Assembly (NCBI GenBank): GCA_045612845.1
Contig: JAZKZV010000023.1
Span: 71,819-135,818 of the forward strand
Source: Clostridia bacterium
Lineage (GTDB): Bacteria > Bacillota > Clostridia > UBA1381
Length of the DNA stretch: 64,000 nt
Direction of reading: 5' to 3'
Shown: in pieces, positions 31,981 to 55,482 of the stretch
Layout: every line of letters starts with the position of its first letter
Position numbering within the stretch: the stretch's first letter is position 1
The notes under the pieces: model-generated
What the model was told of the DNA's origin: nothing
Databases searched by the model: none
The model's input: only the letters and a program-made list of their open reading frames with translations
Program-made: the position numbers and the translations under genes

Positions 31981-32144
31981 TTATTTCTCCTTATATGTCA
32001 ATATAGTTCAAATATTTGTCAAAATAAATATAGCTTTTAAAAGGAAATGTTTGATATTATTGTATTATTAAGCAAAATATTTGCTTGCGTAAATTATACC
32101 ATATAAAAGAGTGAATGTCAATATTTTATTTGGAGGATGAAGTG

Positions 32145-35997: not shown

Positions 35998-37323
35998 TTA
36001 TTGTTCAAGACTATATAAAAAATATGTAATTGCAAGCAAATCTGCACACCCACCGGGAGAGAGATTTCTCTTTATAAAAGCGTCATCTATAGATTCAATC
36101 TGTTTTTTTGTCGGTTCGGGGCAGTCCGTTAGCAACTGTCTTGCAGTTTGCATGGCATATTCAGCCCCCTCTGTTCCTCCGCGATGATAAAGGTTTGTAT
36201 CTTTAACGCTTGAAATCAGGTGGAGTAAGGTAATAGCGCCTGCGTCATTTGGACTAAAATTCTTGTTGCTAAAACTTTTGTAACAAGGAAGACTGATTTT
36301 TGTAACAGATTCAAATCCGGTAGCGGCCTCGCCGCGGATTCCTGTCAAACCATATTTTAGATAAAGCCTGCCGCCTGCGGTTGTTGTATCTATTTGTTTA
36401 AAATCCTCTATAACAGCTTTTTTAACCATGTTTGCACATTCTGAACATATATCACAAATACTTCTAAATGGAGCTTGGGGGAGCCATAGTCTTCCAATAG
36501 CGGCACAGAGTATGCCTATAGAATATATAGCGCCTTTATGAGTATTAACTCCGCATGTTGCCTCAAACATAGTTTTTTCGGCTATAATGCCGGCACTACG
36601 CAATTTTAAAAATGTTTCGTCAGGTGAAAGAGCACAGGTGTTTTTACCAATAGAAAAACATTCGTCAAAATAAGGTTTAAGAGCGTGTGCACTTTTTTCA
36701 AAGGTGTTGATATCCATATCTGTATGACTGCCATTATTGCGACAATCCACAAGCCCCGGTTTTGGGGTGGTATATACTTCGTCTAAAAGGCTTTTTACAG
36801 CAAGAGATGAAACTTTTTCTTTGTCTGTGAGGAAAAAATAAATTTCCATTATTTCGTTAGTAACAGCCTGCAGTTCTTTGACCGGATGAGCTCTTGTGGC
36901 TGCGCAAAATCTTCCGGGACTTTTGCAAACAAAACAACTGCGGGGATTTTCTCTTTCGAGTTTAATTCCGTCTGTGTTTATTACATCCATATCAAATAAT
37001 CTTCCTATAGATACGCTTTCCTCGATATGTGTGCAAATTGCTTTTAGTGTTTGTATATCACAATTTACAGAAAATATCGCCTCGCAGCCGGTGGGTTGGG
37101 TAATTATTTCCTGATGAATTATACTGCCTTTAGGTAATTTTTCCTTTAAAAGATGTATGCCCTCAAAAAATGAACGTTCAATCAATGGCGAGGTTTTTAT
37201 AGGACCTGCAATGTTCATTGTAAAGCTGATAAGAGGGTAGTTAAAGCGGTTGAGTGTGTTTTTTTGCCTTTTTGCACGTTCGTCGCGTGCGTCAAGTATC
37301 TGATTAAGAGTAACTGATGTCAT
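35998..37323 (-). CDS. citXG: fused CitX-CitG (holo-ACP synthase + triphosphoribosyl-dephospho-CoA synthase)
   Basis: The N-terminal ~170 aa are CitX-like. The C-terminal part is CitG-like and ends in GGCADLLAITYFL. Confidence 0.7.
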   Translation of the reverse strand: MTSVTLNQILDARDERAKRQKNTLNRFNYPLISFTMNIAGPIKTSPLIERSFFEGIHLLKEKLPKGSIIHQEIITQPTGCEAIFSVNCDIQTLKAICTHIEESVSIGRLFDMDVINTDGIKLERENPRSCFVCKSPGRFCAATRAHPVKELQAVTNEIMEIYFFLTDKEKVSSLAVKSLLDEVYTTPKPGLVDCRNNGSHTDMDINTFEKSAHALKPYFDECFSIGKNTCALSPDETFLKLRSAGIIAEKTMFEATCGVNTHKGAIYSIGILCAAIGRLWLPQAPFRSICDICSECANMVKKAVIEDFKQIDTTTAGGRLYLKYGLTGIRGEAATGFESVTKISLPCYKSFSNKNFSPNDAGAITLLHLISSVKDTNLYHRGGTEGAEYAMQTARQLLTDCPEPTKKQIESIDDAFIKRNLSPGGCADLLAITYFLYSLEQ

Positions 37324-37341
37324 TTTTTTCGCCCGGTATAA

Positions 37342-38277
37342 TTACATAATAAGGTCGGATTGCTTCTTTTGTTGTAAATCGAGCTTTTGAAGATTACTTT
37401 CCGCATTTTTTCCAACACAGCCCACCAACAAATACCGACGGTTAAAACGGTCATATATAAAGTGATTAAGTAAGTGGAAGTTTTCGATCATTCCTGTTTG
37501 ACTAACATGTATTCGCGGACCGGTGCAAAAATGCTGCTGTCCTCCGATGGATATGTGGTTGTTGTCTACATAGTCGACCGGAAGATTTTTTGCAATCATT
37601 TCATTAACCTGTTTCTCAACTTCAAGAATATCAAAATCAGGCTTTGTTTCAGGGAATGTTATAACAAAACCGTGTTTAACATCGTCATGACCGCATCGTG
37701 CCATTTCTTTTTCGGGCATACAAAGCTCGCATAAATCCTCTGCAGTATGAGCCATCAGACGATATGAAAGGGATTCGTATACTCTGTCGCGTATTTCCTG
37801 AGGCTCTGGGCCGAAAATGTTGGGCCTTGAGAGTAATACCTGCTCGCCGACACCTATAATGAGATTAGCATTGAATCCGAGTAATGGATATATAAGGTCA
37901 AAATGTTCTACAATAACTCGTTTTCCGTTGTGCAAGGCCTCTGTAATTGCATCTGCCAGAACGCTCATTTGGGTAAAAGCATTTTCAAAGCGAATATCAA
38001 CGTGATAGGTGTGCGGAGAAAAATACCCGTCATCTTGTTCCAGAAGCGGAAGAGGACGTACATAAACTCCGTCATCGTCGTTGGTAAGTTCAAGACCCGG
38101 GAACATTCCTCTGAGTAAAGCGCTTTTGCCTGAGCCTGCATCGCCCACAACACCGATGAGCTTATCAAAAGGAGAAAGGTATAGTTGAGCAAGCTGCATG
38201 CCGAGGGCATACATACGATGATGTCCTCTAGGTGCAAAATAACTGCTTAAAATATGGTTTTTCTGACGTTCCTGCAT
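37342..38277 (-). CDS. P-loop protein of unknown function
   Basis: Walker A-like GDAGSGKS followed by LELTNDDDGVYV, vaguely like the HPr-kinase P-loop region. 18-19-nt gaps to citC and citXG. Confidence 0.5.
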   Translation of the reverse strand: MQERQKNHILSSYFAPRGHHRMYALGMQLAQLYLSPFDKLIGVVGDAGSGKSALLRGMFPGLELTNDDDGVYVRPLPLLEQDDGYFSPHTYHVDIRFENAFTQMSVLADAITEALHNGKRVIVEHFDLIYPLLGFNANLIIGVGEQVLLSRPNIFGPEPQEIRDRVYESLSYRLMAHTAEDLCELCMPEKEMARCGHDDVKHGFVITFPETKPDFDILEVEKQVNEMIAKNLPVDYVDNNHISIGGQQHFCTGPRIHVSQTGMIENFHLLNHFIYDRFNRRYLLVGCVGKNAESNLQKLDLQQKKQSDLIM

Positions 38278-38294
38278 ATTTAGTTCCTCCTGAA

Positions 38295-39281
38295 TTATAT
38301 TATTCCTTTGTTAATTAGAAAGTTGTATGTTGTATCGGGTACTAATGATTTGACTTCCTGTATGTTTCCCGAATCAATCAAGGCTCTTACCTGGCTTGCG
38401 CTCACAGGTTTATCTGATATTTCTACTCTTGGGATTTCCTTGAGTTCAATACCGCATGCAGGTAAAATTCTCTTTAATTCTGTGTTATATTGTTGTGTTA
38501 TTGTACAATTAGGTTCCGTCCCTACATATCGTGTGGTTATATTAAATTTTGGAGCATAGTATTTTGTAAAAATTTCAATATCTAAAAGGCACTTAATTTG
38601 AGTGGCATTTTCGCATTCCTTAAGAAAATATGTGGGGAAAGTTGCCGACGAAATGAGGTATGGCCCTGTAGGCAGAACTCTGACATTAGGTATATGTGCT
38701 GTTCCTGTTTGTACCATTTTTATTCTGTCCTCTGCAGAAAATCTGCTTTTGTCTTCAGATACAACAAAGACATAAAGGTTAGCACATTCCCTGGCTGCAG
38801 TTTCTATTAAGTATAGGTGGCCTGATGTGAATGGATTGCAGTTCATTACAATACATCCTGTTTTTCCAGGATGATTGTTGACCTCAAAGTCATTTAGGAA
38901 TTTATTTATTCCGTCTTTTTTGTCTTCCATTAAAAGAACTTTTTCACTTTGTGCTACGGGATAAAAAAACAAGTCTGAAAATATCATTTTGTTTTGTGGT
39001 TTAGTATAGAGGAAAAGGTGTCGTATTCCTTGCGAGAAAGCATCTTTCTTTAGGGCAGTAACAAGAGTAGCACTAAGCCCCTCGCCCTGACGTGTTTCGT
39101 CAACTGCAATGCATTTGAGCACATTATTGTCCCTTGAGCCTGCGGCAACGAGTGTGTCATTATCCCATATAAGCACCGTGCGTTCGGAATAAACATCAGG
39201 TTCAAGAGAAGATTTTTTCAAAAAAGATTTCCAGATATTTAATTTAGGTCCATTTAATTTCGAGAGCACTTCAATATACAT
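38295..39281 (-). CDS. citC: [citrate (pro-3S)-lyase] ligase-type ACP acetyl-ligase
   Basis: N-terminal GNAT-like domain (RQGEGL) plus a cytidylyltransferase-like domain (MNCNPFTSGHLYLIE). Confidence 0.8.
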   Translation of the reverse strand: MYIEVLSKLNGPKLNIWKSFLKKSSLEPDVYSERTVLIWDNDTLVAAGSRDNNVLKCIAVDETRQGEGLSATLVTALKKDAFSQGIRHLFLYTKPQNKMIFSDLFFYPVAQSEKVLLMEDKKDGINKFLNDFEVNNHPGKTGCIVMNCNPFTSGHLYLIETAARECANLYVFVVSEDKSRFSAEDRIKMVQTGTAHIPNVRVLPTGPYLISSATFPTYFLKECENATQIKCLLDIEIFTKYYAPKFNITTRYVGTEPNCTITQQYNTELKRILPACGIELKEIPRVEISDKPVSASQVRALIDSGNIQEVKSLVPDTTYNFLINKGII

Positions 39282-39445
39282 ATTCTATACCTTTATAAAT
39301 TATTTTATATTAACATTATAACTCATAATTACCAAAAATGTAAAGAAAAAAATAAAAATAATTGATTTTTTTTAAATTGTGTTATATAATGTATATAAAT
39401 TGAACTATATCTTTTATAAAAAAGCCGAAAGGAGATTCAAAAGAA

Positions 39446-39715
39446 ATGGATATAAAAAAATATGCATCTGCGGGTACGATGGAATCCAGCGATGCTTATG
39501 TAGAGGTTGAACCATGTAATGATGGCATAAATATCGAAATTGAGTCGGTTGTTCAAAAGCAATTCGGAGAACGGATAAAAAATGCTGTAAGTGATGTTTT
39601 AATCGAAAATGGTGTTAAAAATGCTGTTGTTCGGGTTATAGACAGGGGAGCACTGGAATGTGTAATACGTGCCAGAGTTGAAACCGCTGTTCTTCGTGGA
39701 AAGGAGGATAACTGA
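39446..39715 (+). CDS. citD: citrate-lyase-type acyl carrier protein (gamma subunit)
   Basis: 89 aa with the prosthetic-group Ser region AGTMESSDAYVEV. Confidence 0.8.
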   Translation: MDIKKYASAGTMESSDAYVEVEPCNDGINIEIESVVQKQFGERIKNAVSDVLIENGVKNAVVRVIDRGALECVIRARVETAVLRGKEDN

Positions 39716-40599
39716 TGCGTCGCAGTATGTTGTTTTTGCCGGGTAATAATCCGAATATGCTTATAAACGGAAATTGTCTTGGTGCTGATGCGGTTATATT
39801 TGATTTGGAGGATGCGGTTTCTCCGCAGGAAAAGGATGCGGCTCGTATTCTTGTACGGAATACCATGCGGTATATGGATTTTAATGGTTGTGAAATAATT
39901 GTCCGTATAAATTCTGTTGATACAGAATTCTGGAGAGAAGACCTCGATGTTATATTACCTGAAAAACCTGACCTTATACTTTTGCCAAAGACCGGCATGC
40001 CGGAGGATGCTCTTGTTGTAGACGAATATATGGCGGAGATCGAAAAAAAGTGCGGAATAAAAGAGGGTACAATAGGACTTATGCCTCTTATTGAAACAGC
40101 TCTTGGTGTTGAAAATTCCTATAAAATTGCATCATGCTCAAAGCGTATTAAAGCACTTTTTCTTGGAGCTGAGGATCTTACTGCTGACCTTCAGTGCAAG
40201 CGTACCAAATCGGGAAGAGAAATTGAGTATTCCAGAACAAGACTTGTTGTTGCGGCGCGTGCGGCGGGTATTGATGTTTATGATACTCCATTTACTGATG
40301 TGAATGATGACGATGGTATAGTTGAAGATGCTGAATTGGCAAAGGGTCTTGGTTTTGCAGGTAAGGCATCTATTTCTCCACGCCATGTGGAAGTTATAAA
40401 TCGGGTATTTAGTCCCACTGAGGAAGAAATAGATTATGCATACGAGGTTATAGATGCGATAAATTTGGCAAAGGAACAGGGTAAAGGAGCTATTTCTCTA
40501 CGCGGCAAGATGATAGATGCACCTATTGTTGCAAGGGCACAGAGGACAATTTCTATGGCAGAGGCATTGGGTTTGAACAGGAGGGAAGTAAATGAATAA
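39715..40599 (+). CDS. citE: citryl-CoA-lyase-type beta subunit (HpcH/CitE family)
   Basis: RRSMLFLPGNNP...FDLEDAV motif. Confidence 0.8.
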   Translation: MRRSMLFLPGNNPNMLINGNCLGADAVIFDLEDAVSPQEKDAARILVRNTMRYMDFNGCEIIVRINSVDTEFWREDLDVILPEKPDLILLPKTGMPEDALVVDEYMAEIEKKCGIKEGTIGLMPLIETALGVENSYKIASCSKRIKALFLGAEDLTADLQCKRTKSGREIEYSRTRLVVAARAAGIDVYDTPFTDVNDDDGIVEDAELAKGLGFAGKASISPRHVEVINRVFSPTEEEIDYAYEVIDAINLAKEQGKGAISLRGKMIDAPIVARAQRTISMAEALGLNRREVNE

Positions 40600-42004
40600 A
40601 TTAGTAAATTCAATTCGTGAAGCTATTGTTCTTTCGGGATTGAAAGACGGAATGACTATTTCTTTTCATCATCATTTGCGCAATGGAGACTATGTTTTAA
40701 ACATGGTCATGGAAGAAATAGCGGCTATGGGAATAAAAGATATAACCATAAATGCAAGCTCGTTGTTTGATGTACATATGCCATTGATAACGCATATAGA
40801 AAATAAGGTAGTAACGGGTATTGCGACAGATTATATTGCTGCAAATCTTGGAAGAGTGTTTTCGGAAGGTATATTGGAAAAACCTATAGAGTTCCGTACT
40901 CATGGAGGACGACCGGGTGATATTTCTACCGGCAAGACACCGATTGATGTTGCATTTATTGCTGCGCCGGCTGCCGATGTTATGGGTAATTGCTCGGGTA
41001 AATATGGCAAATCTGCTTGCGGAAGTCTTGGTTATGCTTATGCTGATGCGATGTTTGCAAAAAAAACCGTAGTTATTACAGATAATATTGAGCCGTATCC
41101 ATTGCATGATTGGTCAATTTCTGAGGATTATATAGACTATGTGGTCGAAGTGGAGGCTATTGGAGATCCTAATGGTATTGTTTCCGGTACAACTAAGATT
41201 ACACGTGATCCGGTTGGTTTGGTTATGGCATCTCATGCGGCAAGGGTTATAGAGGCCTCGGGACTTTTAAAGGATGGTTTTTCATTTCAGACGGGTGCGG
41301 GAGGTGCATCTCTTGCTGCAGCTAAGTTTTTAAAGGATATAATGCTTAAGAAGAACATTAAGGGAAGCTTTGGACTGGGCGGTATAACGGGGTATATGGT
41401 AGATATGCTTAATGCGGGTTGTTTCCGTAACCTTATGGATGTTCAGTGTTTTGATTTGGCGGCGGTGGAATCAATAAAAAATAATCCGGCGCATAAGGAG
41501 ATATCTGCTATGCAATATGCATCTCCGAACAGTAAAAGTGCGGTTGTTGATAGCCTTGATGTTGTTATCCTGGGTGCAACTGAGATTGACACGGACTTTA
41601 ATGTGAATGTTCATACCGATTCCAATGGATATATTATGGGAGGTTCGGGCGGTCATAGTGATACTGCGGCCGGCTCAAAGCTTTCTATGATTATTGCACC
41701 TATGTTCAGGGCGAGGATGCCTATTGTTACGGACCGTGTAACTTGTATTTCTACCCCGGGCAAGGACATAGATGTTTTGGTTACACAAGGGGGAATTGCT
41801 GTTAATCCTAAAAATATAGACCTAAAAGAACGCCTGGTTAAAGCCGGACTGCCGATTGTGGATATTCTGGAACTAAAAGAAAAGACTGAGAGAATAACCG
41901 GAAAACCACAAAAAATACAAAGGGGAGATAAAGTTGTTGCGGAGGTTATTGGTCGCAACGGTGGTATTCTGGATAAAATATATAATGTACCCCAAAATAA
42001 GTAA
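40592..42004 (+). CDS. citF: citrate-lyase-type alpha subunit (CoA transferase)
   Basis: 470-aa CitF-like sequence following citD and citE. Confidence 0.75.
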   Translation: MNKLVNSIREAIVLSGLKDGMTISFHHHLRNGDYVLNMVMEEIAAMGIKDITINASSLFDVHMPLITHIENKVVTGIATDYIAANLGRVFSEGILEKPIEFRTHGGRPGDISTGKTPIDVAFIAAPAADVMGNCSGKYGKSACGSLGYAYADAMFAKKTVVITDNIEPYPLHDWSISEDYIDYVVEVEAIGDPNGIVSGTTKITRDPVGLVMASHAARVIEASGLLKDGFSFQTGAGGASLAAAKFLKDIMLKKNIKGSFGLGGITGYMVDMLNAGCFRNLMDVQCFDLAAVESIKNNPAHKEISAMQYASPNSKSAVVDSLDVVILGATEIDTDFNVNVHTDSNGYIMGGSGGHSDTAAGSKLSMIIAPMFRARMPIVTDRVTCISTPGKDIDVLVTQGGIAVNPKNIDLKERLVKAGLPIVDILELKEKTERITGKPQKIQRGDKVVAEVIGRNGGILDKIYNVPQNK

Positions 42005-42043
42005 TGCAATAATTGTGTTTATCAGAAAACCGAAAATAATCTT

Positions 42044-42070
42044 AAGGCACTCTAAAGTATAGAGTGCCTT
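42044..42070 (+). terminator. hairpin after citF
   Basis: AAGGCACTCT / AGAGTGCCTT stem. The T-tract is weak. Confidence 0.5.
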
Positions 42071-42145
42071 AATTGTGTCAAATGATATTGACAAAATCGA
42101 GAATAATGGTATAATTGTTATATAACAATTAAAGGAGTGAAAATT

Positions 42146-43123
42146 GTGGAATCAATTTACAAGGTTAATGCAAAGCTTGATATCCCTATATACAGACAGC
42201 TTGTGGATGCCATTTGTGTTGGTATAAAAAACGGTAGTATTGTATCCGGACAACAGCTTCCTACTGTTCAGGAAATGATTGAAGAGGTTGGCGTTGCAAG
42301 AGGTACTGTAAAAAGGGCATATGATGAATTGGAGCGTATTGGACTTGTTGAGAAAGTACAGGGGAGAGGAACCTTTGTAAAATATCAGCCTGTAAATTCC
42401 GGCAGCAGAAAAGAACAGGCAATGGCGGCTATTGATGAAATGCTCGACCGACTGGAAGGTATGGGACTTTCACCATCAGAAATAAATATATTCTTAAATC
42501 TGAAACTTCGTGAACGCTCGCAGGAGGAGGCACATGTGAAGATTGCGGTGGTTGAATGTAATCCTGAAAATTTATCGCAAATGTCAGAACAACTCAGGCA
42601 CATTGATGAACTTGATTTGTATTCTTACACATTCGACAGTGTAAAGCAGTATCCGTATAAATTGGGAGAGGATTTTGATTTAATTGTTACAACATCCTTG
42701 CACTCTCAATATCTGGAAAATGTAGTCCCGGACAAAAAAAGAATAGCCAGGGTTGCGCTAAGGCCTTCTGCCCGTTGCTTGTCGCATATTATAAAACTCC
42801 GTTCGGAAGAAAAAATTGGTATTATAGGGTACAGTGTGCGCTTTGGAGAACTAATATATAATACTTGCCAGATGTATGCAGAAGATGTTATTTTAGATGA
42901 TCCATTGGTTGTTGGTGAAGGTGCAGATGCAGAAAAATATCTTAAGGGAAAAGACACAATCCTTGTTCCTAAAAATTATGAAAAATACTTTGATGTTGCT
43001 ACTGTTAAGCGTATATCAAAATTCAAGGGTGATGTAATAGAATGTAACTACGAAATGGACGAAGGCTCTGTTTTGTACCTTGAAGCTAAAATCAAAAAAA
43101 TACGTGATGAAAAAACTATATAA
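42146..43123 (+). CDS. GntR-family regulator with a C-terminal ligand-binding-type domain
   Basis: GntR HTH (LPTVQEMIEEVGVARGTVKRAYDELE). GTG at 42146 has better RBS spacing than GTG at 42137. Promoter TTGACA, 16-nt spacer, TATAAT at 42088-42115. Confidence 0.7.
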   Translation: MESIYKVNAKLDIPIYRQLVDAICVGIKNGSIVSGQQLPTVQEMIEEVGVARGTVKRAYDELERIGLVEKVQGRGTFVKYQPVNSGSRKEQAMAAIDEMLDRLEGMGLSPSEINIFLNLKLRERSQEEAHVKIAVVECNPENLSQMSEQLRHIDELDLYSYTFDSVKQYPYKLGEDFDLIVTTSLHSQYLENVVPDKKRIARVALRPSARCLSHIIKLRSEEKIGIIGYSVRFGELIYNTCQMYAEDVILDDPLVVGEGADAEKYLKGKDTILVPKNYEKYFDVATVKRISKFKGDVIECNYEMDEGSVLYLEAKIKKIRDEKTI

Positions 43124-43149
43124 AAAATAATTAAAATACCATTTTTTAC

Positions 43150-43178
43150 TTGACAAATGATATATAACATTGTATTAT
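43150..43178 (+). promoter_or_regulatory. sigma-A type promoter of the glm-mal operon
   Basis: TTGACA, 17-nt spacer, TATTAT. Confidence 0.5.
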
Positions 43179-43231
43179 ATAGATATACAACAATTATAGT
43201 TGCGTCTAAAATAATATAATGAGGTATTGAT

Positions 43232-43663
43232 ATGGATAACAGAGAAAAAAAAGTCCTTGTCATCGGTGTCATAGGTGCTGATGTTCATGCGGTGGGTAAT
43301 AAGATTTTGTACCATGCTTTTACAGAGGCAGGGTTTGAAGTTGTTAATCTTGGCGTTATGGTTTCTCAGGAGGAGTATATTGCAGCAGCTATAGAGTCCG
43401 GTGCAGATGCTATAGTGGTATCTTCTCTTTACGGACAGGGTGAGCTTGACTGTCGTGGTATGCGAGAAAAGTGTAACGAAGCAGGACTTAAAGGTATTCC
43501 CTTGATAGTAGGGGGTAATATAGTTATTGGCAAGCAGAAATTCGAAGATGTGGAAAAACGTTTTAAGGCAATGGGCTTTGACAGAGCTTTTCCGCCGGGA
43601 ACTCCGCCTGAGGCTGCCATAGAGGCTCTCCGTGAGCTTTTAAACATGGACGGTGAAGATTGA
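43232..43663 (+). CDS. glmS: glutamate mutase sigma (B12-binding) subunit
   Basis: Close match to clostridial MutS as I recall it ([38 protein letters not shown]). Confidence 0.9.
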
Positions 43664-45054
43664 TGAAGAATGTCTTGCTGATTGATTTTGGCAGTACATA
43701 TACAAAGCTTACAGCTGTTGATTTAGAAAAGGAACAGATTATTGGAACAGCATCGGCTTATACAACAGTTCATTCTGATATAAATGATGGTCTTAATGAA
43801 GGGCTTGGAATTTTAGAGGAATGGACAGGAAAAATCAGATATGATGCGTGCTATGCATGCTCGTCTGCTGCGGGTGGATTACGTATGGTAACAAGCGGAC
43901 TTGTTCCCGAACTTACGGGAGAGGCGGCAAAGCTTGCAAGTCTTGGAGCGGGAGCTAAAGTTACAGGTGTATATGCCTATGAATTGACCGAAGAAGATAT
44001 TGACGAAATCAGAAAAATCAATCCTGATATATTCTTGTTGGTTGGTGGTACAGACGGGGGAAATACCGAGTGTATAATTCATAATGCACAGATGCTTTCA
44101 AAAATGAAGCCTCAGTTTCCGATTGTACTGGCGGGAAATCGTACAGCTGCAAATAAATGCCGGGAAATACTCGGGGATTGCGAAGTCTATGTTTGCCCCA
44201 ACGTAATGCCCAAATTTGGAACTTTGCAGATAGAACCTACACAAAAACAGATTAGAGAGATATTTTTAAATCGTATTATACAGGCAAAGGGATTAAGCAA
44301 GGTCAGAGAACTTCTTTCTGATATAATGATGCCTACACCGTCTGCGGTACTTCAGGCAATGGAGCTGCTTGCGAACGGATGTGAGGACGAAAGCGGAATA
44401 GGGGAACTGGTGGCTGTAGATGTAGGTGGAGCTACCACCGATGTTTATTCGATTGCTGATGGAATGCCCGAGCATATGAATACTGTCTACAAAGGACTTC
44501 CTGAACCCTATGCAAAGCGGACAGTAGAGGGCGATATAGGTATGCGCTACAGTATACAGGGTATTGTTGATGCTAAGGGTATTGAGCGAATATCTGAGCT
44601 TTCCGGACTTTCCGGGGAAGAGGCAATGGAACTGATAGATGATTTAAAAAATAATACAGATAAATTGCCAAATGGAAACAAAGAGCTGGAGGCTCTTGAT
44701 TTTGCACTTGCTTCCTGTGCGGTTGATGAGGCACTTACACGTCATGCAGGTACTATTTCAGAAACCTATACAATGATGGGTCAGACCTTTGTTCAGGAAG
44801 GTAAGAATCTTACCAAGGTAAAACAGATAGTTGTTACAGGAGGAAGCCTTATACACGCTAAAAGGACGGAAGAGATAGCAACTCATGCTTTATACTCTAC
44901 TGCAAACCCTACATCATTAAAACCAAAAAGTGCAGAAATATGGATAGATAAAACATATATTTTGGCTGCAATGGGACTTTTGTCAACGTACCATCCCAAA
45001 GCAGCTTTACGAATTATGAAAAAGGAGCTTAAACATTATGGATATTCAAAATAA
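43660..45054 (+). CDS. glmL: glutamate mutase reactivase/chaperone MutL-like
   Basis: 464-aa ORF lying between the sigma and epsilon subunits, as in the clostridial mut operons. Confidence 0.75.
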
Positions 45055-46489
45055 ACGCCTTTCTGATAACGAGTTTAACAGTCTGCGTCAAGAAGTTCTG
45101 GCACAATGGCCTACAGGAAAAGACGTTAATATTGAAGAGGCAGTTGCATATCATAAAGCTATGCCGGACTCACGAAACTTTTCAAAAAAACTCTTATCAG
45201 CAAAGCGTGATAATCGTACATTGGTGCAACCTCGTGCGGGTGTTCCTGTTGTAGAAGAACACATAAAACTTATGCAGTATCTCGAAGAACACGGTGAGGC
45301 TGATTTATTACCATCAACTATAGATAGTTATACAAGACAGAACCGTTACGAAGAGGCGGAAAATGGTATATCAGAATCATTGCGATTGGAAAGAGCTATG
45401 CTCAATGGTTTTCCTGCGGTTAATCATGGTGTGGCAAAGTGTCGTCAGGTTATTGAAAGCGTTAATGTACCTATGCAGGTTCGCCATGGTACCCCCGATG
45501 CAAGACTTCTTACTGAAATTACATATGCAGGTGGTTTTACAAGTTATGAGGGTGGAGGTATTTCCTATAATCTTCCATACTGCAAAAATATTCCTATGGA
45601 AAGAACAATACGCGACTGGCAGTATGTTGACCGCTTAACAGGCATGTATGAAGAAATGGGTGTTTCAATTAACCGTGAACCATACGGACCTTTAACCGGT
45701 ACGTTAGTCCCTCCTTGTATTTCGCATGCGGCTGCCATTATTGAGGCATTGTTGGCTGCAGAACAGGGTGTTAAGAACATTACAGTCGGATACGGTCAAT
45801 GCGGAAATCTTGTTCAGGATATCGCAGCTATCCGTACATTGCAGGAGCTTACTGATGAATATCTCGAAAAATATGGATATAAAGATGTCGAAGTTACAAC
45901 CGTTCTACATCAGTGGATGGGCGGTTTCCCTGCTGATGAGGCGAAGGCTTTTGGTGTTATATCTTCAGGAAGTCTTATTGCAGCACTTTCTAAGGCGACA
46001 AAAGTAATTGTAAAAACACCGCACGAAGCTGTAGGTATTCCTACTATGGAGGCTAATGCCGAGGGCTTGCGTTGTACCAAGCAGGTTGTTAATATGCTTG
46101 CTGACCAGACATTCCAGGATAAGCGTCTTGAACCTGAAAAAGAAATTATTAAGCTCGAAACACGTGCAATAGTTGATAAATGCTTTGAACTTGGAAACGG
46201 AGATATTGCTATGGGTGTATGTCGTGGTGTCGAAGCAGGTGTTTTGGATGTACCATTTGCGCCATGTCGTTTTAATGCGGGTAAGATGTTACCTTGTCGT
46301 GATAACGATGGGGCAATTCGTATATTGGAGCCGGGAAATCTTCCGTTCTCCAAAGAACTTCTTGATTTCCATAAATCAAAGATAGAAGAACGTGCCAATG
46401 CAGAAAAACGCAAAGCCTCATTCCAGATGGTAATTGATGATGTTTATGCAATTGGAAAAGGCCGACTTGTAGGCCGACCAAAATATTGA
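45038..46489 (+). CDS. glmE: glutamate mutase epsilon (catalytic) subunit
   Basis: 483 aa at the position and of the length of MutE/GlmE. Confidence 0.85.
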
Positions 46490-46509
46490 TAACAGGAGAT
46501 AGTGTAATT

Positions 46510-47769
46510 ATGAAAATTATAGATATTGTTTGTTCACCGGGTCGTACAGGTTTTTACTTTGATGATCAGCGTGCTATTAAAAAGGGTGCAGGTCATGATG
46601 GTGTGTTTTATATAGGCAATCCCGTAACAGAAGGCTTTCAGGCTGTTCGTCAGGCGGGAGAGTCCATCTCGGTAATGATTGTGTTAGAAGACGGACAGGT
46701 TGCGTATGGAGACTGTGCCGCTGTTCAATATTCAGGTGCAGGGGGTAGAGATCCTTTGTTTCTTGCACAGGATTTTATACCGGTTATAGAAAATCACATA
46801 AAACCTCAGCTTGTTGGTAAAGAGGCTGATAACTTCCGCGGATTATGCACAATGATGGAGGCTATTGAGGTGGATGGCAAGCGACTTCATACTGCTATCA
46901 GATATGGTGTATCTCAGGCTATATTGGATGCGGTTGCAAAAGCAACCGGAAGAATGATGTGCGAGGTTGTGGCAGATGAATATGGATGCAGTGTTTCCCA
47001 AAAGCCAATTCCTATATTTACCCAATCCGGTGATGACCGCTATGATAATTCAGATAAAATGATTATTAAAGGTGCACAGGTTCTTCCTCATGCACTTATA
47101 AATAATGTTGATACAAAACTTGGCAGAAACGGTGAAAAACTTAAGGAATATGTAGAGTGGCTACGTAATCGTATTTTAGAATTTCGTTCGGACGAGAGCT
47201 ATTCACCTGTTTTGCACATTGATGTATATGGAACTATAGGAGCAGCCTTTGGTAATAACAATTACAAGGCAATGGCAGATTACATAGAGGAACTTGGCAG
47301 AATTGCAAAACCTTTTAAAATCCGCATTGAGGGACCTATGGATTGCGACTGTGATCGTGAAACACAACTTACAGCTCTGGCGGCTCTTACCAAAGAGTTG
47401 GACGAGCGTGGCTGCGATGTTGAGCTTGTTGCTGATGAATGGTGTAACACACTTGAAGATATCAAGCTTTTTGCTGATAATAAAGCAGGACACATGGTGC
47501 AGATAAAGACTCCCGACCTTGGAGGTATAAACAATACCATTGAGGCAGTGCTATACTGCAAGGAAAAGGGGATTGGTGCTTATCAGGGCGGTACATGTAA
47601 TGAAACTGACCGTAGTGCGCAGGTGTGTGTTCATTGTGCAATGGCTACTCAGCCTGTTCAGATTCTTGCAAAACCCGGTATGGGTGTTGATGAAGGATTT
47701 ATGATAGTATATAATGAGATGAATCGTATATTGGCTATGTCAAAAGCTAAGAAAAACCTTAAGAAGTAA
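46510..47769 (+). CDS. mal: 3-methylaspartate ammonia-lyase
   Basis: Starts MKIIDIVCSPGRTGFYFDDQRAIKKGAGHDG. Also CAAVQYSGAGGRDPLF and KAGHMVQIKTPDLGG, nearly as in the C. tetanomorphum enzyme as I recall it. Confidence 0.9.
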   Translation: MKIIDIVCSPGRTGFYFDDQRAIKKGAGHDGVFYIGNPVTEGFQAVRQAGESISVMIVLEDGQVAYGDCAAVQYSGAGGRDPLFLAQDFIPVIENHIKPQLVGKEADNFRGLCTMMEAIEVDGKRLHTAIRYGVSQAILDAVAKATGRMMCEVVADEYGCSVSQKPIPIFTQSGDDRYDNSDKMIIKGAQVLPHALINNVDTKLGRNGEKLKEYVEWLRNRILEFRSDESYSPVLHIDVYGTIGAAFGNNNYKAMADYIEELGRIAKPFKIRIEGPMDCDCDRETQLTALAALTKELDERGCDVELVADEWCNTLEDIKLFADNKAGHMVQIKTPDLGGINNTIEAVLYCKEKGIGAYQGGTCNETDRSAQVCVHCAMATQPVQILAKPGMGVDEGFMIVYNEMNRILAMSKAKKNLKK

Positions 47770-49279: not shown

Positions 49280-49306
49280 AAAAATCAGCAAAATGCTGAT
49301 TTTTTA
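49280..49306. terminator. bidirectional terminator at the atpC end
   Basis: AAAAATCAGCA / TGCTGATTTTT stem. Confidence 0.7.
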
Positions 49307-49714
49307 TATATATTTATCTTTTTTTGCTCTCAGTCGACTCAAGGCACGAGCCATATTCTTCTGTGCAATATGATATTCACGTATGCCTGTTTTGTGTAAA
49401 ATAGCTTCGAGTGCCTCTGCGGCTGCACGCTTGGCTCTGTTTTCGTCAATTTCTTCGGGGCGCTCAGCAGTCTCTACAAGAACATGAACATTGTTCTTTT
49501 CAATTTTTGTCCAGCCATGCGAAACAACTACTGTTTGTGTATTACCGTTGCTGTCGGTAAACCTTAAATTTCCCGGTACAATAGTTGTAAGCACATTATG
49601 ATGATCCGCCAGTATTCCGTACTCGCCATCCTGGGTGGGTACAACAAGGGAATGGCACTCGCCTTCATAAAACGGTCTGTCAGCTGATAATATTTTAAGA
49701 TTAAAATTTTTCAT
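49304..49714 (-). CDS. atpC: F1 ATP synthase epsilon subunit
   Basis: 136 aa. Beta-sandwich plus a helical hairpin. Last gene of the operon. Confidence 0.85.
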   Translation of the reverse strand: MKNFNLKILSADRPFYEGECHSLVVPTQDGEYGILADHHNVLTTIVPGNLRFTDSNGNTQTVVVSHGWTKIEKNNVHVLVETAERPEEIDENRAKRAAAEALEAILHKTGIREYHIAQKNMARALSRLRAKKDKYI

Positions 49715-49734: not shown

Positions 49735-52071
<2,337 letters not shown>

Positions 52072-53823
52072 TTATATTCTATGCTCCTGTTTGATTTTAT
52101 TTATTGCCTTTTGTGCTTCTTTTAATATAGTTTCTTTATCCTCGTCCGATAAAACACCATTATATTCTATGTTGTTGCATATTTCCGGACAAGAATCCTC
52201 AAGATGTAAAAGTATATCTCTCATAACAGAATTTATTATATCCTTTGGGATATCCTCTAAAAGACGGTTTAACACACAAACAAGAATAAGCACCTGTTCG
52301 TATTGCTTGTATGGTGAGGCTTCCTCCTGAATAAGTATCTGCATTAAACCCTCACCGTAGTTAAGTTGTCTTTTTGTTGTACTGTCAAGCTCACTTGCAA
52401 ACTGTGTAAACACTTCCATTTCGTGATATTGTGCAAGGTCGAGTCTTATAGCACCCGATGCCTTCTTCATTGCCTTTGTCTGGGCATTTCCGCCCACACG
52501 CGAAACTGACAGACCAACATTCACCGCAGGTCGCTGACCCGAGAAAAAGAGCTCACTCTCTAAAAAAATCTGTCCGTCTGTGATAGAAATGATATTTGTG
52601 GGGATATATGCACTTACATCTCCCGATTGTGTTTCGGCAATAGGCAGAGCGGTCATTGACCCGCCGCCATTCTCTTCGCTCAAATGTGCACTGCGTTCAA
52701 GCAGTCTTGAATGAAGATAAAATACATCGCCAGGATATGCTTCTCTTCCGGGAGAGCGTCCCAATAACAAGCTTATTGAACGATATGCAACAGCGTGCTT
52801 TGATAAATCGTCATAAACTATTAGAACGTCTTTGCCCTTGTTCATAAAATATTCGCCCAATGCACAACCTGCATATGGAGCAATATACTGCAAGGAGGCA
52901 CTGTCGCCTGCCGAGGCATTTACTATTATTGAATACTCCATTGCACCATTGTTCTTGAGTGTATTAAGAATTTTAGCAACAGAGCTTGCTTTTTGACCTA
53001 TAGCAACATAGATGCAAATTACGTCTTTGCCTTTTTGGTTTAATATAGTATCGACAGCAATAGCGGTTTTACCTGTTTGTCTGTCGCCTATAATAAGCTC
53101 ACGCTGACCTTTGCCGATAGGGAACATAGAGTCTATTGTAAGAATGCCTGTCTCGAGGGGTGTATCAACAGACTGTCTGTCAATTATTCCGGGTGCGTGT
53201 CTTTCTATTGGATAGTAATCATCACATTCTATAGCACCTTTACCGTCAATGGGATTACCGAGTGCGTCAACTACGCGTCCTATAAATGCCTCGCCAACAG
53301 GCATGCCTGCAGTTTTACCTGTTCTTCGTACCGGGGTGCCCTCACAAATGTCATTGTCATTGTCGAACAGTATACAACCGATTTCATTTTCCTTTAAATC
53401 CTGTATCATACCGCGTACTCCGGATGAAAACATAAGTATTTCACCATATTCGGCTCTGTCAAGACCTGATACTGTTGCAATACCATCGCCAACAGTAAGG
53501 ACAGTACCAATTTCCTGGGACAGTGCTTTTGGTGTCCACGAATTTATTGTTTCCTTAAGAAGGGGTATAAGGTCGGAATCGGTTTTTTTTATGTTTTTGA
53601 GTGTATTTTTAAGTTGTTGAAGTCTTCCGTCTAAACTCCAGTCATATACGTCATCGTTGATTTCCAGACGAAAACCGCCCTTTTGCTTATCATTTTGTAT
53701 CCACTCCAGAACAACATCATCACCGTATCTGGACGTTAAAAAGGCATTGAATTTTTCAGTCTGGATTTCGCTTGGCTTTGTTTTTGAGTACAGGCGGGCT
53801 GACTTTACAGATAAATCATTCAT
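52072..53823 (-). CDS. atpA: F1 ATP synthase alpha subunit with an N-terminal delta(OSCP) C-terminal-domain fusion
   Basis: The first ~80 aa resemble the delta C-terminal domain ([23 protein letters not shown]). The rest is a normal alpha (Walker A GDRQTGKT). The ATG at 53823 follows a GAGGTGA RBS and overlaps the atpF stop. Confidence 0.8.
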
Positions 53824-54301
53824 CTGTCTCACCTCGTTCTACTGAACTCAAAAAATCATCAAATATCTCCGAATCTTGTTTTCTTATAAGCTTTTCGGTT
53901 GCTTTTATTGCCATTTCTTCTATTTGTGCCTGTGCAGAATTGATTATCCTTGAATATTCATGCTGTGCTTTTTCTTTTGCCTGTGCAATTATCTTTGCTG
54001 CTTCCTCTTGTGCATTTAATATGCTTTCTTTGTTTAGTTCTTCTGTTCTTTTAAAAGTCTCATTTTTTATATTCATTATTTCATCTTCGGCATTAGAGAG
54101 CTTTTCTTCGTATAGAGCCTGTTTTTCTTTTGCTTTTTCGAGGTTGCTCATAGCCTCCTCGTCGAGACCTTTATAGTAGTCCATGCGCTTTTGCATAAAA
54201 TCCTTTACAGGCTTGTACAACAAAAAATACAATATAGCAAATAATATAACAAAATTCAGAAGATGAAGAAGAATTTGTTGCCAATCTATATTTAACGGCA
54301 T
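53816..54301 (-). CDS. atpF: F0 ATP synthase b subunit
   Basis: Start [21 protein letters not shown]. One transmembrane helix plus a long charged helix. Confidence 0.8.
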
Positions 54302-54317
54302 AATGCTCACCTCACCC

Positions 54318-54674
54318 TTACAGTACAAATATAATCAATATTGCAATAACAAGTGCATAGATTATAGCTGTTTCTATAAATACAAGACCAAGCATGAGGT
54401 TTGTTCTTATTTTACCGTCTGCCTCAGGTTGTCTTGATATGCCCTCGGAAGCCTTTGCGATAGCCCAACCCATAGCAACAGCACCGCCCGCCGCTGCAAG
54501 ACCTATTGCAATGCCTGCCGCTATTGCTTTGCTACCTTTTGTCTGTTCAGTTGCCTGGGTGATAGTTACTTCACTCGTGCCTGATTCAACATCTGCATAG
54601 GATGTTGTTACAAAAGCAGACATCATAACTAAAAGTACAAACAATATTGATAAACCCTTTACTAATCTTTTCAT
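54318..54674 (-). CDS. atpE: F0 ATP synthase c subunit with a ~45-aa N-terminal extension
   Basis: C-terminal 70 aa form a canonical c hairpin (GISRQPE loop, carboxylate in VFIETAIIY). The N-terminus MKRLVKGLSILFVLLVMMSAFVTTSYA looks like a signal peptide. Confidence 0.8.
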   Translation of the reverse strand: MKRLVKGLSILFVLLVMMSAFVTTSYADVESGTSEVTITQATEQTKGSKAIAAGIAIGLAAAGGAVAMGWAIAKASEGISRQPEADGKIRTNLMLGLVFIETAIIYALVIAILIIFVL

Positions 54675-54675
54675 T

Positions 54676-55482
54676 TTACTTTTCCTCTCTTTCTGATACT
54701 TCTCCGTAGAATAGTGCAGTAAGCATTGTTAATACATATGCCTGTATTAAGGCATGCAGAATTGTAAATAATACGCCTACTATTATAGGTAATACAAAGC
54801 TTAAATGCATGTAGTGATACACAAGCTCTGTTACGAGAGCACCGCTTAGCAGAGCTCCGAAAATTCTGAAACTCATAGATATGGGCAGAGAAAAATCCTT
54901 TAGTGTTTTTCCTATGCCTTTTACCTTGTTTGCCATAATTCCGCCCGACAGTATAATGGTGTATGAGAGAAATCCCATCATAATAGCACCGTTTATATCG
55001 GATAGGGGGGCGGGTAATGCTATAGGATTTCCGGTTGTTGTAATTGCCTGAAACCCAAAGAGCTCAAACAATGTTCCTATTGCAATATATGTGCCGGCAG
55101 TAAATATATACGCACCTAAAAATCTGTTCTTGTGGGGACTGTTTGACTTTGACATATTATCAAACATACCTACAGCTGTTTCGAGAACAAGTTGAAACTT
55201 TCCCGGAACATATTTAAATTTGGGGATTGCGAATATTCTTACAATCAAGGCAAATACAAACAGTATGGCACTAACAACAAAACCGGATATAAGACCGGGA
55301 TTTACGTTCTTTATGCCTAAAAGATTGATTTTGTTTTCTTCGTGAAGAACTGCGTCGCGCATAACTGTCTGGATTGACTGATGTGTTATATGAGGTCTTG
55401 GAACCAGAAATACACCAATCAGTAGTAGTACTGTAACTGCCGCAAATATAATAATGCTTATCTTTTTGTGTTTTTTGCTCAC
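54676..55482 (-). CDS. atpB: F0 ATP synthase a subunit
   Basis: 268-aa polytopic protein. GTG start 5 nt after GGAGGA. First gene of the operon. Confidence 0.8.
   Translation of the reverse strand: MSKKHKKISIIIFAAVTVLLLIGVFLVPRPHITHQSIQTVMRDAVLHEENKINLLGIKNVNPGLISGFVVSAILFVFALIVRIFAIPKFKYVPGKFQLVLETAVGMFDNMSKSNSPHKNRFLGAYIFTAGTYIAIGTLFELFGFQAITTTGNPIALPAPLSDINGAIMMGFLSYTIILSGGIMANKVKGIGKTLKDFSLPISMSFRIFGALLSGALVTELVYHYMHLSFVLPIIVGVLFTILHALIQAYVLTMLTALFYGEVSEREEK

What the first reader, a model, noticed from the sequence alone, without database searches (positions are those of the whole stretch)
52072..53832. ATP synthase alpha is fused to a delta (OSCP) C-terminal domain, and the operon has no full-length atpH
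The ORF following atpF is 583-586 aa instead of about 500.

Evidence for a fusion:
- Its first ~80 residues ([70 protein letters not shown]) align by eye with the C-terminal domain of bacterial delta, for example the Bacillus ...[29 protein letters not shown] region.
- From about residue 83 ([14 protein letters not shown]...[18 protein letters not shown]) it is an ordinary alpha.
- There is no ATG, GTG or TTG in the alpha frame between the delta-like part and the conserved alpha core. Alpha therefore cannot be initiated separately.
- The atpF stop overlaps the start of this ORF (ATGAATGA). This leaves no room for the ~100-aa delta N-terminal domain, which normally grips the alpha N-terminus.

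Inference: the non-covalent contact between the delta N-terminal domain and alpha has been replaced by a covalent link. Every alpha (three per F1) would then carry a b-binding delta domain. I do not recall this stator architecture from characterised F-ATPases; mycobacteria fuse b to delta instead.

Caveat: the junction (KK) is encoded by a T8 run on the plus strand at 53583-53590, a classic indel-error site. Either +1 or -1 there would leave alpha without any start codon, which argues that the fusion is real.
Basis: partly seen in the sequence, partly recalled or inferred. Interest (0 to 1): 0.8.

Follow-up and report, generated by a model that had tools for sequence, protein, structure and literature searches.

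The report
Natural delta-alpha fused ATP synthase stator
This gut-type Clostridia genome encodes an F-type ATP synthase whose delta subunit has shrunk to its stalk-binding half and is welded onto every alpha subunit. That is the same design engineers used in 2025 to give the enzyme up to three stalks and a doubled ion-per-ATP ratio, and in this genome the rotor subunit gamma is also read through into beta.

Summary
ORF 53823-52072 (minus strand, 583 aa) consists of a delta/OSCP C-terminal domain (residues 6-76; Pfam PF00213, E=4e-8, profile positions 102-172 only), a 7-residue junction, and a complete alpha subunit.

- The b stop overlaps the start of this ORF.
- No delta N-terminal domain is found anywhere in the 64 kb window.
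- There is no in-frame start codon between the delta part and the alpha core.

It is not an indel artefact of the T8 run. The same fusion, without that run, occurs in 66 of 80 related species genomes, including cultured strains, and in more than 100 protein clusters.

It is not unprecedented. Ueno et al. (Nat Commun 2025) built exactly this deltaΔN-alpha fusion in Bacillus PS3 (PDB 9JC1). They obtained up to three peripheral stalks with three a-subunits and an H+/ATP ratio of 5.8. They also noted natural fusions in Acidaminococcus fermentans. The window protein aligns collinearly with the engineered chain.

Best reading: an obligate deltaΔN-alpha stator, probably multi-stalk, and untested in any natural enzyme.

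Unexpected extra: gamma and beta form a single ORF here and in about 42 related protein clusters. All six whose alpha gene could be read lie in delta-alpha fusion operons.

The parts
54676..55482 (-). atpB, Fo subunit a (268 aa)
   Evidence: PF00119 E=1.4e-17. First gene of the operon.
54318..54674 (-). atpE, Fo subunit c (118 aa). It carries an N-terminal signal-peptide-like segment (MKRLVKGLSILFVLLVMMSAFVTTSYA|DV) and a ~20-aa spacer before helix 1.
   Evidence: PF00137 matches residues 51-114 only. The same extension is seen in the fused-clade c subunits examined (14 of the 66 related loci plus L081 and L083) but is absent from canonical operons. The ion-site residues are M-F-E-T-A-Y, which is not the full Na+ signature.
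53816..54301 (-). atpF, Fo subunit b. The likely start is the ATG at 54301, after GGTGAGGTGA; the mechanical ORF starts at the TTG at 54328. Its stop overlaps the start of the next gene.
   Evidence: PF00430 E=2.8e-17 with no OSCP part, so this is not a mycobacterial-type b-delta fusion.
52072..53823 (-). deltaΔN-alpha fusion gene (583 aa plus stop)
   Evidence: One ORF carrying PF00213 plus PF02874, PF00006 and PF00306. It is 100% identical to NCBI protein P0001. It aligns collinearly with the engineered fusion chain 9jc1_I: residues 38-563 to 36-564, and profile positions 9-113 to chain residues 5-113, E=3.7e-9.
53596..53808 (-). delta (OSCP) C-terminal, b-binding domain (residues 6-76 of the fusion)
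   Evidence: The domain starts at the equivalent of Bacillus PS3 delta residue ~105, which is the truncation point used in the engineered enzyme.
53575..53595 (-). Junction (residues 77-83, NIKKTDS), containing the A8/T8 run at 53583-53590
   Evidence: The junction is variable in sequence and is 6-17 residues long in nearly all relatives (longer, by a further 7 or so residues, in the L057/L058/L061/L063/L064/L066 group), with no conserved start codon.
52075..53574 (-). alpha subunit proper (residues 84-583), beginning with its N-terminal helix [13 protein letters not shown]
   Evidence: TIGR00962 at 720 bits, residues 83-574. 49-61% identity to solved alpha subunits in the structure-based alignments (sequence matches).
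49735..52071 (-). Single ORF (778 aa) holding gamma (residues 1-291, 51199-52071), a 21-aa linker (51136-51198) and beta (from the ATG at 51135, preceded by AAAGGGAGG)
   Evidence: PF00231 covers residues 3-291 and the beta domains cover 317-752. There is no stop codon between them. The same arrangement occurs in L001 and in ~42 protein clusters.
49304..49714 (-). atpC, epsilon (136 aa)
   Evidence: PF02823 plus PF00401.

Best explanation
The operon a-c-b-[deltaCTD-alpha]-[gamma-beta]-epsilon encodes an F-type ATP synthase with a rebuilt stator.

Shown from sequence:
- The delta N-terminal domain, which normally sits on the three-fold axis on top of alpha3beta3 and limits the enzyme to one stalk, has been lost.
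- The delta C-terminal domain, which binds the b2 stalk, is translated as an N-terminal extension of alpha. All three alpha subunits therefore carry one.
- Alpha cannot be made on its own.

Inferred by homology to the engineered Bacillus PS3 deltaΔN-alpha enzyme (PDB 9JC1), which has the same domain boundaries and a junction only about 3 residues longer:
- Each alpha-borne domain docks a b2 dimer in the canonical way.
- The complex can therefore carry up to three peripheral stalks, each holding its own a-subunit on the c-ring.
- This multiplies ions translocated per turn and lowers the ion-motive force needed to make ATP (or, in reverse, pumps more ions per ATP).
- That would suit a fermenting anaerobe living on small ion gradients.
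For: Fusion anatomy and obligate nature.

Conservation, which excludes an artefact:
- 66 of 80 species-representative genomes chosen by alpha similarity carry the fusion. They include the isolates Lachnospiraceae bacterium YSB2008 and XPB1003 and Vescimonas sanitatis.
- More than 100 clusters of 573-591 aa carry PF00213 plus the alpha domains.
- Invariant delta-domain residues (A9, S13, P17, Q21, F28, Y33, G50, F51, D61, W62, S63, G66) show purifying selection on the domain.

Same design as the engineered enzyme:
- 9jc1_I is the only PDB sequence aligned over both parts.
- It is the top Foldseek hit with 573 aligned columns, against about 470-500 for ordinary alpha subunits.

What the engineered fusion does (PMC12229609):
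- a and b stoichiometry rises 2.2- and 1.8-fold.
- Cryo-EM classes show one to three stalks, each with an a-subunit.
- Equilibrium pmf is 68 mV against 133 mV for wild type, and H+/ATP is 5.8.
- The authors predict the same for the natural fusion in A. fermentans.

A natural two-stalk, two-a F1Fo exists in Chloroflexus, where a shortened delta-N dimerises (PMC12002316).

Three relatives (L058, L063, L064) even carry two tandem delta C-terminal domains per alpha. This points to selection on docking capacity.
Against: - No natural deltaΔN-alpha enzyme has been purified. The number of stalks and a-subunits cannot be read from sequence.
- The operon has single a and b genes, and nothing here shows they are expressed in 3:6 ratio.
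- In the engineered enzyme most cryo-EM particles had fewer than three stalks.
- c-ring size, and hence room for three a-subunits, is unknown.
- A second ATPase, or a stand-alone atpH elsewhere in the genome, is not excluded.
- My full-length AlphaFold model is poor (pLDDT 61, pTM 0.43). Structural arguments therefore rest on the N-terminal domain and on sequence alignment.
Confidence: 0.6

Rival explanations
1. Single-stalk enzyme. The fusion only replaces the lost delta-N anchor by a covalent tether. One of the three delta domains binds the single b2/a module and the other two stay idle.
For: The operon has one a and one b gene in canonical order. Single-stalk particles were common in the engineered preparation. 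Nothing in the sequence forces more than one stalk.
Against: In the engineered enzyme, multiple stalks formed spontaneously from an otherwise unchanged operon, averaging two. Tandem duplication of the domain in L058, L063 and L064 is hard to explain if two of three copies are already surplus. The whole clade shows strong conservation of the domain.
Confidence: 0.3
2. Assembly or sequencing artefact. An indel in the T8 run, or a lost stop codon, falsely joins a truncated atpH to atpA.
For: An 8-base homopolymer lies exactly at the junction.
Against: The same fusion occurs without the run in 66 independent genomes and more than 100 protein clusters, down to ~60% identity. There is no alpha start codon. 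There is no delta-N coding sequence upstream, because b overlaps the ORF start.
Confidence: 0.01
3. Polyprotein. The fusion is cleaved after translation, releasing a free mini-delta and a normal alpha, so stoichiometry is set after cleavage.
For: The junction is short, variable and often Lys-rich.
Against: There is no conserved cleavage motif. A free delta C-terminal domain would have no delta-N to hold it on F1. The engineered uncleaved fusion is fully functional.
Confidence: 0.05
4. A decaying or non-rotary operon, suggested by the rotor gamma being fused to the stator beta in this genome. The F1Fo would then no longer work as a rotary coupling enzyme.
For: Gamma-beta read-through in the window.
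Against: All subunits are 83-94% identical to L001 except b (75%) and the delta domain (70%), with intact catalytic motifs. Gamma-beta ORFs are conserved in ~42 clusters, with in-frame linkers and a retained internal beta start. A gamma C-terminus covalently tied to the stator still rotates in E. coli F1 (PMC3536650).
Confidence: 0.04

Closest known systems
Engineered Bacillus PS3 deltaΔN-alpha fused FoF1 (Ueno et al., Nat Commun 2025, PMC12229609; PDB 9JC1)
   Same: - Delta residues ~105-178 are fused through a short linker to the alpha N-terminus.
- Delta-N is absent.
- There is no free delta or free alpha.
- The chain is 580 aa, against 583 aa here.
- The two align collinearly across both parts.
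   Different: - It is man-made, in a thermophilic Bacillus background with epsilon truncated.
- The natural junction is ~3 residues shorter and has no Gly-Ser linker.
- The natural operon also has a signal-peptide c subunit and a tailed gamma, which is fused to beta in this window.
Natural delta-alpha gene fusion noted in Acidaminococcus fermentans (UniProt D2RLW6) and in G4Q3K6 and A0A1I2C5T3 (Discussion and Suppl. Fig. 9 of PMC12229609)
   Same: A natural atp operon in which delta lacks its N-terminal domain and is fused to alpha. It is found in a strictly anaerobic fermenter and is predicted, but not shown, to be multi-stalk.
   Different: - A. fermentans belongs to a different class (Negativicutes).
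- Sequence relationship to the Clostridia clade found here was not tested.
- The paper reports three proteins. Here the fusion is seen in 66 species genomes and more than 100 clusters.
Chloroflexus aurantiacus F1Fo (Zhang et al., PNAS 2025, PMC12002316; PDB 9ITJ)
   Same: A natural F-type enzyme with more than one peripheral stalk and more than one a-subunit. This is made possible by a reduced delta N-terminal domain. Its delta-C matches the window domain.
   Different: - Delta is a separate protein that keeps a shortened N-domain.
- That N-domain dimerises on top of F1 and gives two stalks.
- There is no fusion to alpha.
Mycobacterial b-delta fusion (e.g. PDB 7JG5 chain d)
   Same: Another case where a stator contact of delta is made covalent. 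Its delta-C part matches the window domain.
   Different: - The fusion partner is b, not alpha.
- Delta-N is retained.
- There is one copy per complex and a single stalk.
- Here b is a separate, ordinary protein.
V/A-type ATPases with two or three EG peripheral stalks
   Same: Several stalks each dock separately on the catalytic head, leaving the top of the head free (as summarised in PMC12002316).
   Different: - The subunits are unrelated.
- The stalks have no membrane anchor.
- There is only one a-subunit, so stalk number does not change the ion/ATP ratio.

Membership tests
F-type ATP synthase alpha subunit (TIGR00962 / PF02874+PF00006+PF00306) | Full-length match above the curated cut-off | tested here: met
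   TIGR00962 scores 720.7 bits (cut-off 484) over residues 83-574. All three Pfam domains are present.
ATP synthase delta/OSCP (PF00213) | C-terminal alpha/beta domain that binds the b stalk | tested here: met
   PF00213 scores 33.9 bits (cut-off 22.3) against profile positions 102-172. A profile of the region hits solved delta C-domains. The fold matches at rmsd 2.5-4 A.
ATP synthase delta/OSCP (PF00213) | N-terminal helical bundle that binds the alpha N-termini | tested here: not met
   Profile positions 1-~95 have no match in the ORF, in the window or in 66 related loci. The b stop overlaps the ORF start.
Natural/engineered deltaΔN-alpha fusion class (PMC12229609) | Delta-C fused in frame to the alpha N-terminus, with no free alpha and no separate atpH in the operon | tested here: met
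   Collinear alignment with 9jc1_I.
Natural/engineered deltaΔN-alpha fusion class (PMC12229609) | Common descent with the A. fermentans protein D2RLW6 | not tested
   The sequence was not retrievable with these tools. The fusion may have arisen more than once: L067 groups with canonical operons in the alpha tree.
Multi-stalk, multi-a F1Fo | Two or more b2 stalks and two or more a-subunits per alpha3beta3, with a raised ion/ATP ratio | not testable with these tools
   This needs purified enzyme (cryo-EM, stoichiometry, pmf threshold). Only the prerequisite, three docking domains and a free axis, is shown.
N-ATPase (alternate F1Fo) | Alternate alpha/beta models above cut-off and the operon order beta-epsilon-Q-R-a-c-b-alpha-gamma | tested here: not met
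   TIGR03324 scores 613.6 against a cut-off of 750.5, and TIGR03305 scores 587 against 752. The gene order is a-c-b-alpha-gamma-beta-epsilon.
Mycobacterial-type b-delta fusion | Delta fused to the C-terminus of a b subunit | tested here: not met
   The b ORF is 161-170 aa and contains PF00430 only.

The most novel reading that the evidence does not exclude
In this lineage the loss of delta-N did two things at once. It freed all three alpha subunits to dock stalks, giving a natural multi-stalk, multi-a ATP synthase. It also opened the top of the alpha3beta3 crown, so that the extended gamma C-terminus can leave along the axis and stay covalently joined to the N-terminus of one beta. The working enzyme would then be alpha'3 beta2 (gamma-beta), with free beta supplied from a conserved internal start. 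The rotor would spin against a flexible peptide swivel. This would be the first natural rotary motor whose rotor and stator are one polypeptide.
Probability: 0.3. Interest if true: 0.9.

Novelty: new member of a known kind. Interest (0 to 1): 0.62.

Why it matters
The ion-per-ATP ratio is a basic constant of a cell's energy budget. It was thought to be tuned in nature only by c-ring size. The 2025 engineering work showed it can also be multiplied by adding stalks and a-subunits, and guessed that nature may do so.

This window, and the survey made from it, show that the enabling mutation (deltaΔN fused to alpha) is not a curiosity of one or two genomes. It is the standard atp operon of a large group of gut and rumen Clostridia, several of them in culture. 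That makes the question [quoted passage not shown] directly testable.

The associated gamma-beta read-through, if the link persists in the assembled enzyme, would be a natural test of how a rotary motor tolerates a covalent rotor-stator tether.

Tried and rejected
- Programmed frameshifting or slippage at the A8 run. Rejected: the run is not conserved, and neither product would supply free alpha.
- Internal initiation of alpha. Rejected: the window and at least 12 relatives have no start codon at all between the two parts, and the rest have none conserved in position.
- Whole-protein AlphaFold model from 44 close homologues. It has low confidence (pLDDT 61.5, pTM 0.43, nucleotide-binding domain disordered). 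It was used only for aligned length, not for geometry.
- Search of the 50%-identity representative library with the N-terminal profile. It returned mostly contig-end fragments, because full-length fusions cluster with ordinary alpha subunits, so it gave no usable count.
- Exact look-up of the window protein's contig. Not on record, so the organism name was not obtained.
- P0002 (832 aa) and P0120 (613 aa), which looked like longer variants. They are alpha subunits with internal duplications, probably mis-assemblies.
- Na+ coupling. The c subunit lacks the Q32 and T67 equivalents (M-F-E-T-A-Y), so I make no claim about the coupling ion.
- Literature searches for a natural gamma-beta fusion. Nothing found.
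Full report
**What is in the sequence**

On the minus strand the window carries one atp operon:
- a: 55482-54676
- c: 54674-54318
- b: 54301 (or 54328) to 53816
- a 583-aa ORF: 53823-52072
- a 778-aa ORF: 52071-49735
- epsilon: 49714-49304

The 583-aa ORF starts at an ATG that overlaps the b stop (gATGAATGA). This ATG lies 6 nt after GAGGTGA.

Pfam places an OSCP (delta) match on residues 6-75. The match is E=4.3e-8, 33.9 bits, above the 22.3-bit gathering score. It covers only profile positions 102-172 of 172. The three alpha domains follow. NCBIfam's atpA model covers residues 83-574.

The T8 run at 53583-53590 is real and encodes the KK at the junction.

**Is the delta-like part really delta-C?**

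Four lines of evidence say yes.
- A profile of the first 113 positions, built from 27 homologues, hits only ATP synthase proteins in the PDB. These are the delta subunits of Bacillus PS3 (residues 105-176), E. coli (111-176), Paracoccus, Pseudomonas and Chloroflexus, the mycobacterial b-delta fusion, and OSCP. All hits fall in the C-terminal domain.
- AlphaFold on residues 1-112 gives strands 7-13, 37-43, 51-55 and 58-61 and helices 19-33 and 64-76, at pLDDT about 80.
- The 44 best PDB matches of that model are all delta/OSCP C-domains.
- An HMM built from full-length canonical delta subunits of related operons matches the ORF only over HMM positions 104-175. It matches nothing else in the 64 kb window. 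tblastn agrees.

**Is it an artefact?**

No.
- The 120 best database relatives are almost all 573-591 aa and carry PF00213 plus the alpha domains.
- In 80 species-representative genomes retrieved by alpha similarity, 66 have the same fusion. Eleven have a canonical full-length delta gene followed by a separate alpha. Three are cut by a contig end.
- Fusion carriers include the isolates Lachnospiraceae bacterium YSB2008 and XPB1003 and Vescimonas sanitatis.
- Junction residues differ between genomes and the A-run is absent elsewhere.
- In the window and at least 12 other loci there is no ATG, GTG or TTG at all between the DWS motif and GDGIA. Elsewhere such codons are scattered and mostly lack a Shine-Dalgarno sequence. 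Alpha can therefore only be made as the fusion.
- The 66/80 figure reflects how the loci were chosen (the best 80 of 434). It is not a prevalence.

**What is known**

A literature search led to Ueno et al., Nat Commun 2025 (PMC12229609).

Their reasoning was that delta-N, sitting on the pseudo-threefold axis, limits FoF1 to one stalk. They deleted residues 2-104 of Bacillus PS3 delta and fused residues 105-178 to the alpha N-terminus. The results were:
- The enzyme had on average about two stalks and about two a-subunits (a and b 2.2- and 1.8-fold wild type).
- Cryo-EM classes showed one to three stalks, each with canonical delta-C/b2 contacts and its own a-subunit.
- The equilibrium pmf was halved (68 against 133 mV).
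- The H+/ATP ratio was 5.8.

Their Discussion notes that the A. fermentans operon has this very fusion (D2RLW6), as do two further UniProt entries. They call a natural multi-stalk enzyme "highly likely" but untested.

The window protein aligns in one collinear stretch with the engineered chain 9jc1_I. Residues 38-563 align to 36-564. The N-terminal profile aligns positions 9-113 to chain residues 5-113 at E=3.7e-9, running through delta-C, the linker and the alpha N-helix. 9jc1_I is also the top Foldseek hit with the longest alignment, though my full-length model is poor.

The natural junction is about three residues shorter than the engineered one.

A natural two-stalk, two-a enzyme is also known in Chloroflexus, where a shortened delta-N dimerises (PMC12002316).

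**Mechanism**

Shown:
- An obligate deltaΔN-alpha fusion, giving three b-docking domains per F1.
- No delta-N.
- Strong conservation of the domain.

Inferred from the engineered homologue:
- Each domain binds a b2/a module.
- The enzyme is therefore multi-stalk with a raised ion/ATP ratio.

I put about 0.95 on the first part and about 0.5-0.6 on the second. The main rival is a single-stalk enzyme with two idle domains.

Three relatives (L058, L063, L064) have two tandem delta-C domains per alpha. That fits selection on docking rather than idle copies.

The neighbouring genes encode methylaspartate mutase, methylaspartate ammonia-lyase and citrate lyase. They suggest an amino-acid or citrate fermenter. 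For such an organism, ATP synthesis at low ion-motive force would be useful. This is an inference.

**Other clade features**

- The c subunit has a signal-peptide-like N-terminus plus a spacer in all the fused operons examined (14 of the 66 loci plus L081 and L083), but not in the canonical ones. Its ion site reads M-F-E-T-A/V-Y in 65 of the 66 fused loci.
- Gamma carries a Lys/Arg-rich C-terminal tail.
- In an NJ tree of alpha the fused operons are nearly monophyletic. L067 groups with canonical operons and has their type of c subunit, so a second origin is possible.

**The unexpected extra: gamma and beta in one ORF**

In the window, gamma has no stop codon. It reads through a 21-aa linker into beta, which keeps its own AAAGGGAGG-ATG start.

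The 85%-identical relative L001 has the same arrangement. Its linker is the same length but only about 45% identical.

A database search with the 778-aa ORF found about 42 clusters of 734-831 aa, at 55-90% identity, that cover both gamma and beta.
- Their linkers are 20-90 aa long, variable and low in complexity. One has QNGG repeats.
- The linkers are always in frame, while both other frames contain stops.
- A conserved Met with a purine-rich upstream sequence marks an internal beta start.
- All six whose alpha gene could be read (window, L001, L081, L082, L083 and the truncated L084) have an alpha gene upstream. The five with a complete alpha have the delta-alpha fusion.

A covalent gamma-beta link need not stop rotation. 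E. coli F1 with the gamma C-terminal helix disulfide-linked to the stator bearing keeps ATPase and rotary activity by forming a swivel (PMC3536650). With delta-N gone, the crown's central concavity is exposed, so a gamma tail could exit there.

Whether the link persists in the mature enzyme is unknown. I found no paper describing it.

**Verdict**

It is a new and widespread member of a kind that was engineered, and noticed in nature, in 2025, but has never been characterised in a natural enzyme. The gamma-beta read-through deserves its own follow-up.

Noticed in passing
window 49735-52071 (-); linker 51136-51198; also L001:7753-10089, L081:7001-9358, L082:2262-4616, L083:5920-8415, L084:914-3238: Gamma and beta are one ORF with no stop after gamma. 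The linker is 21-90 aa and in frame. Beta keeps an internal Shine-Dalgarno sequence and ATG. About 42 protein clusters (P0271-P0313) show this, and every one with a readable complete alpha gene sits in a delta-alpha fusion operon. This would be a rotor-stator covalent fusion. No literature on it was found.
   Followed up: partly
L002-L064 gamma genes (e.g. L010, L013, L043, L044): Gamma subunits of the fused clade, and of some related canonical operons (L065, L068, L069, L071), end in a Lys/Arg-rich tail 5-25 aa beyond the usual C-terminus (e.g. SGARSLKKKKK); canonical Butyrivibrio-type gamma lacks it. The gamma stop often overlaps the beta start. This is the likely precursor state of the gamma-beta read-through.
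   Followed up: partly
window 54318-54674 (-); c genes of the fused-clade loci examined (L001-L016) and of L081, L083: The c subunit has a Sec-type signal-peptide-like N-terminus (cleavage-like SYA|D, AFA|A) and a 20-60 aa acidic/Thr-rich spacer before helix 1. This is absent from canonical operons such as L075-L078. The ion-site residues are M-F-E-T-A/V-Y.
   Followed up: partly
L058:3653-5710, L063:5947-8007, L064:5962-8001: Two tandem delta C-terminal domains precede alpha, giving ~680-aa proteins (Coproplasma-like MAGs). A wider subclade that includes these genomes (also L057, L061, L066) has longer b ORFs of ~235-255 aa.
   Followed up: partly
L067:5950-7728: This fused delta-alpha protein has an alpha that groups with canonical operons (L065, L068-L070) in the tree. 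Its c subunit is of their type, with no signal peptide and ion-site residues ILEATY. The fusion may have arisen independently here.
   Followed up: partly
window 35998-47769: Next to the atp operon lie CitG/CitX, the citrate lyase alpha subunit (CitF), a MutL-like protein, the methylaspartate mutase E chain and a probable methylaspartate ammonia-lyase. This is a citrate and glutamate (methylaspartate pathway) fermentation gene set.
   Followed up: partly
P0002 (832 aa), P0120 (613 aa): These database alpha subunits have long exact internal duplications. They are probably assembly errors in public metagenome contigs. Their bit scores are inflated as a result.
   Followed up: yes
window 32115-34418 (+): A GH94 (cellobiose/chitobiose phosphorylase family) protein of 767 aa. 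It hints at a fibre-degrading gut or rumen organism.
   Followed up: no
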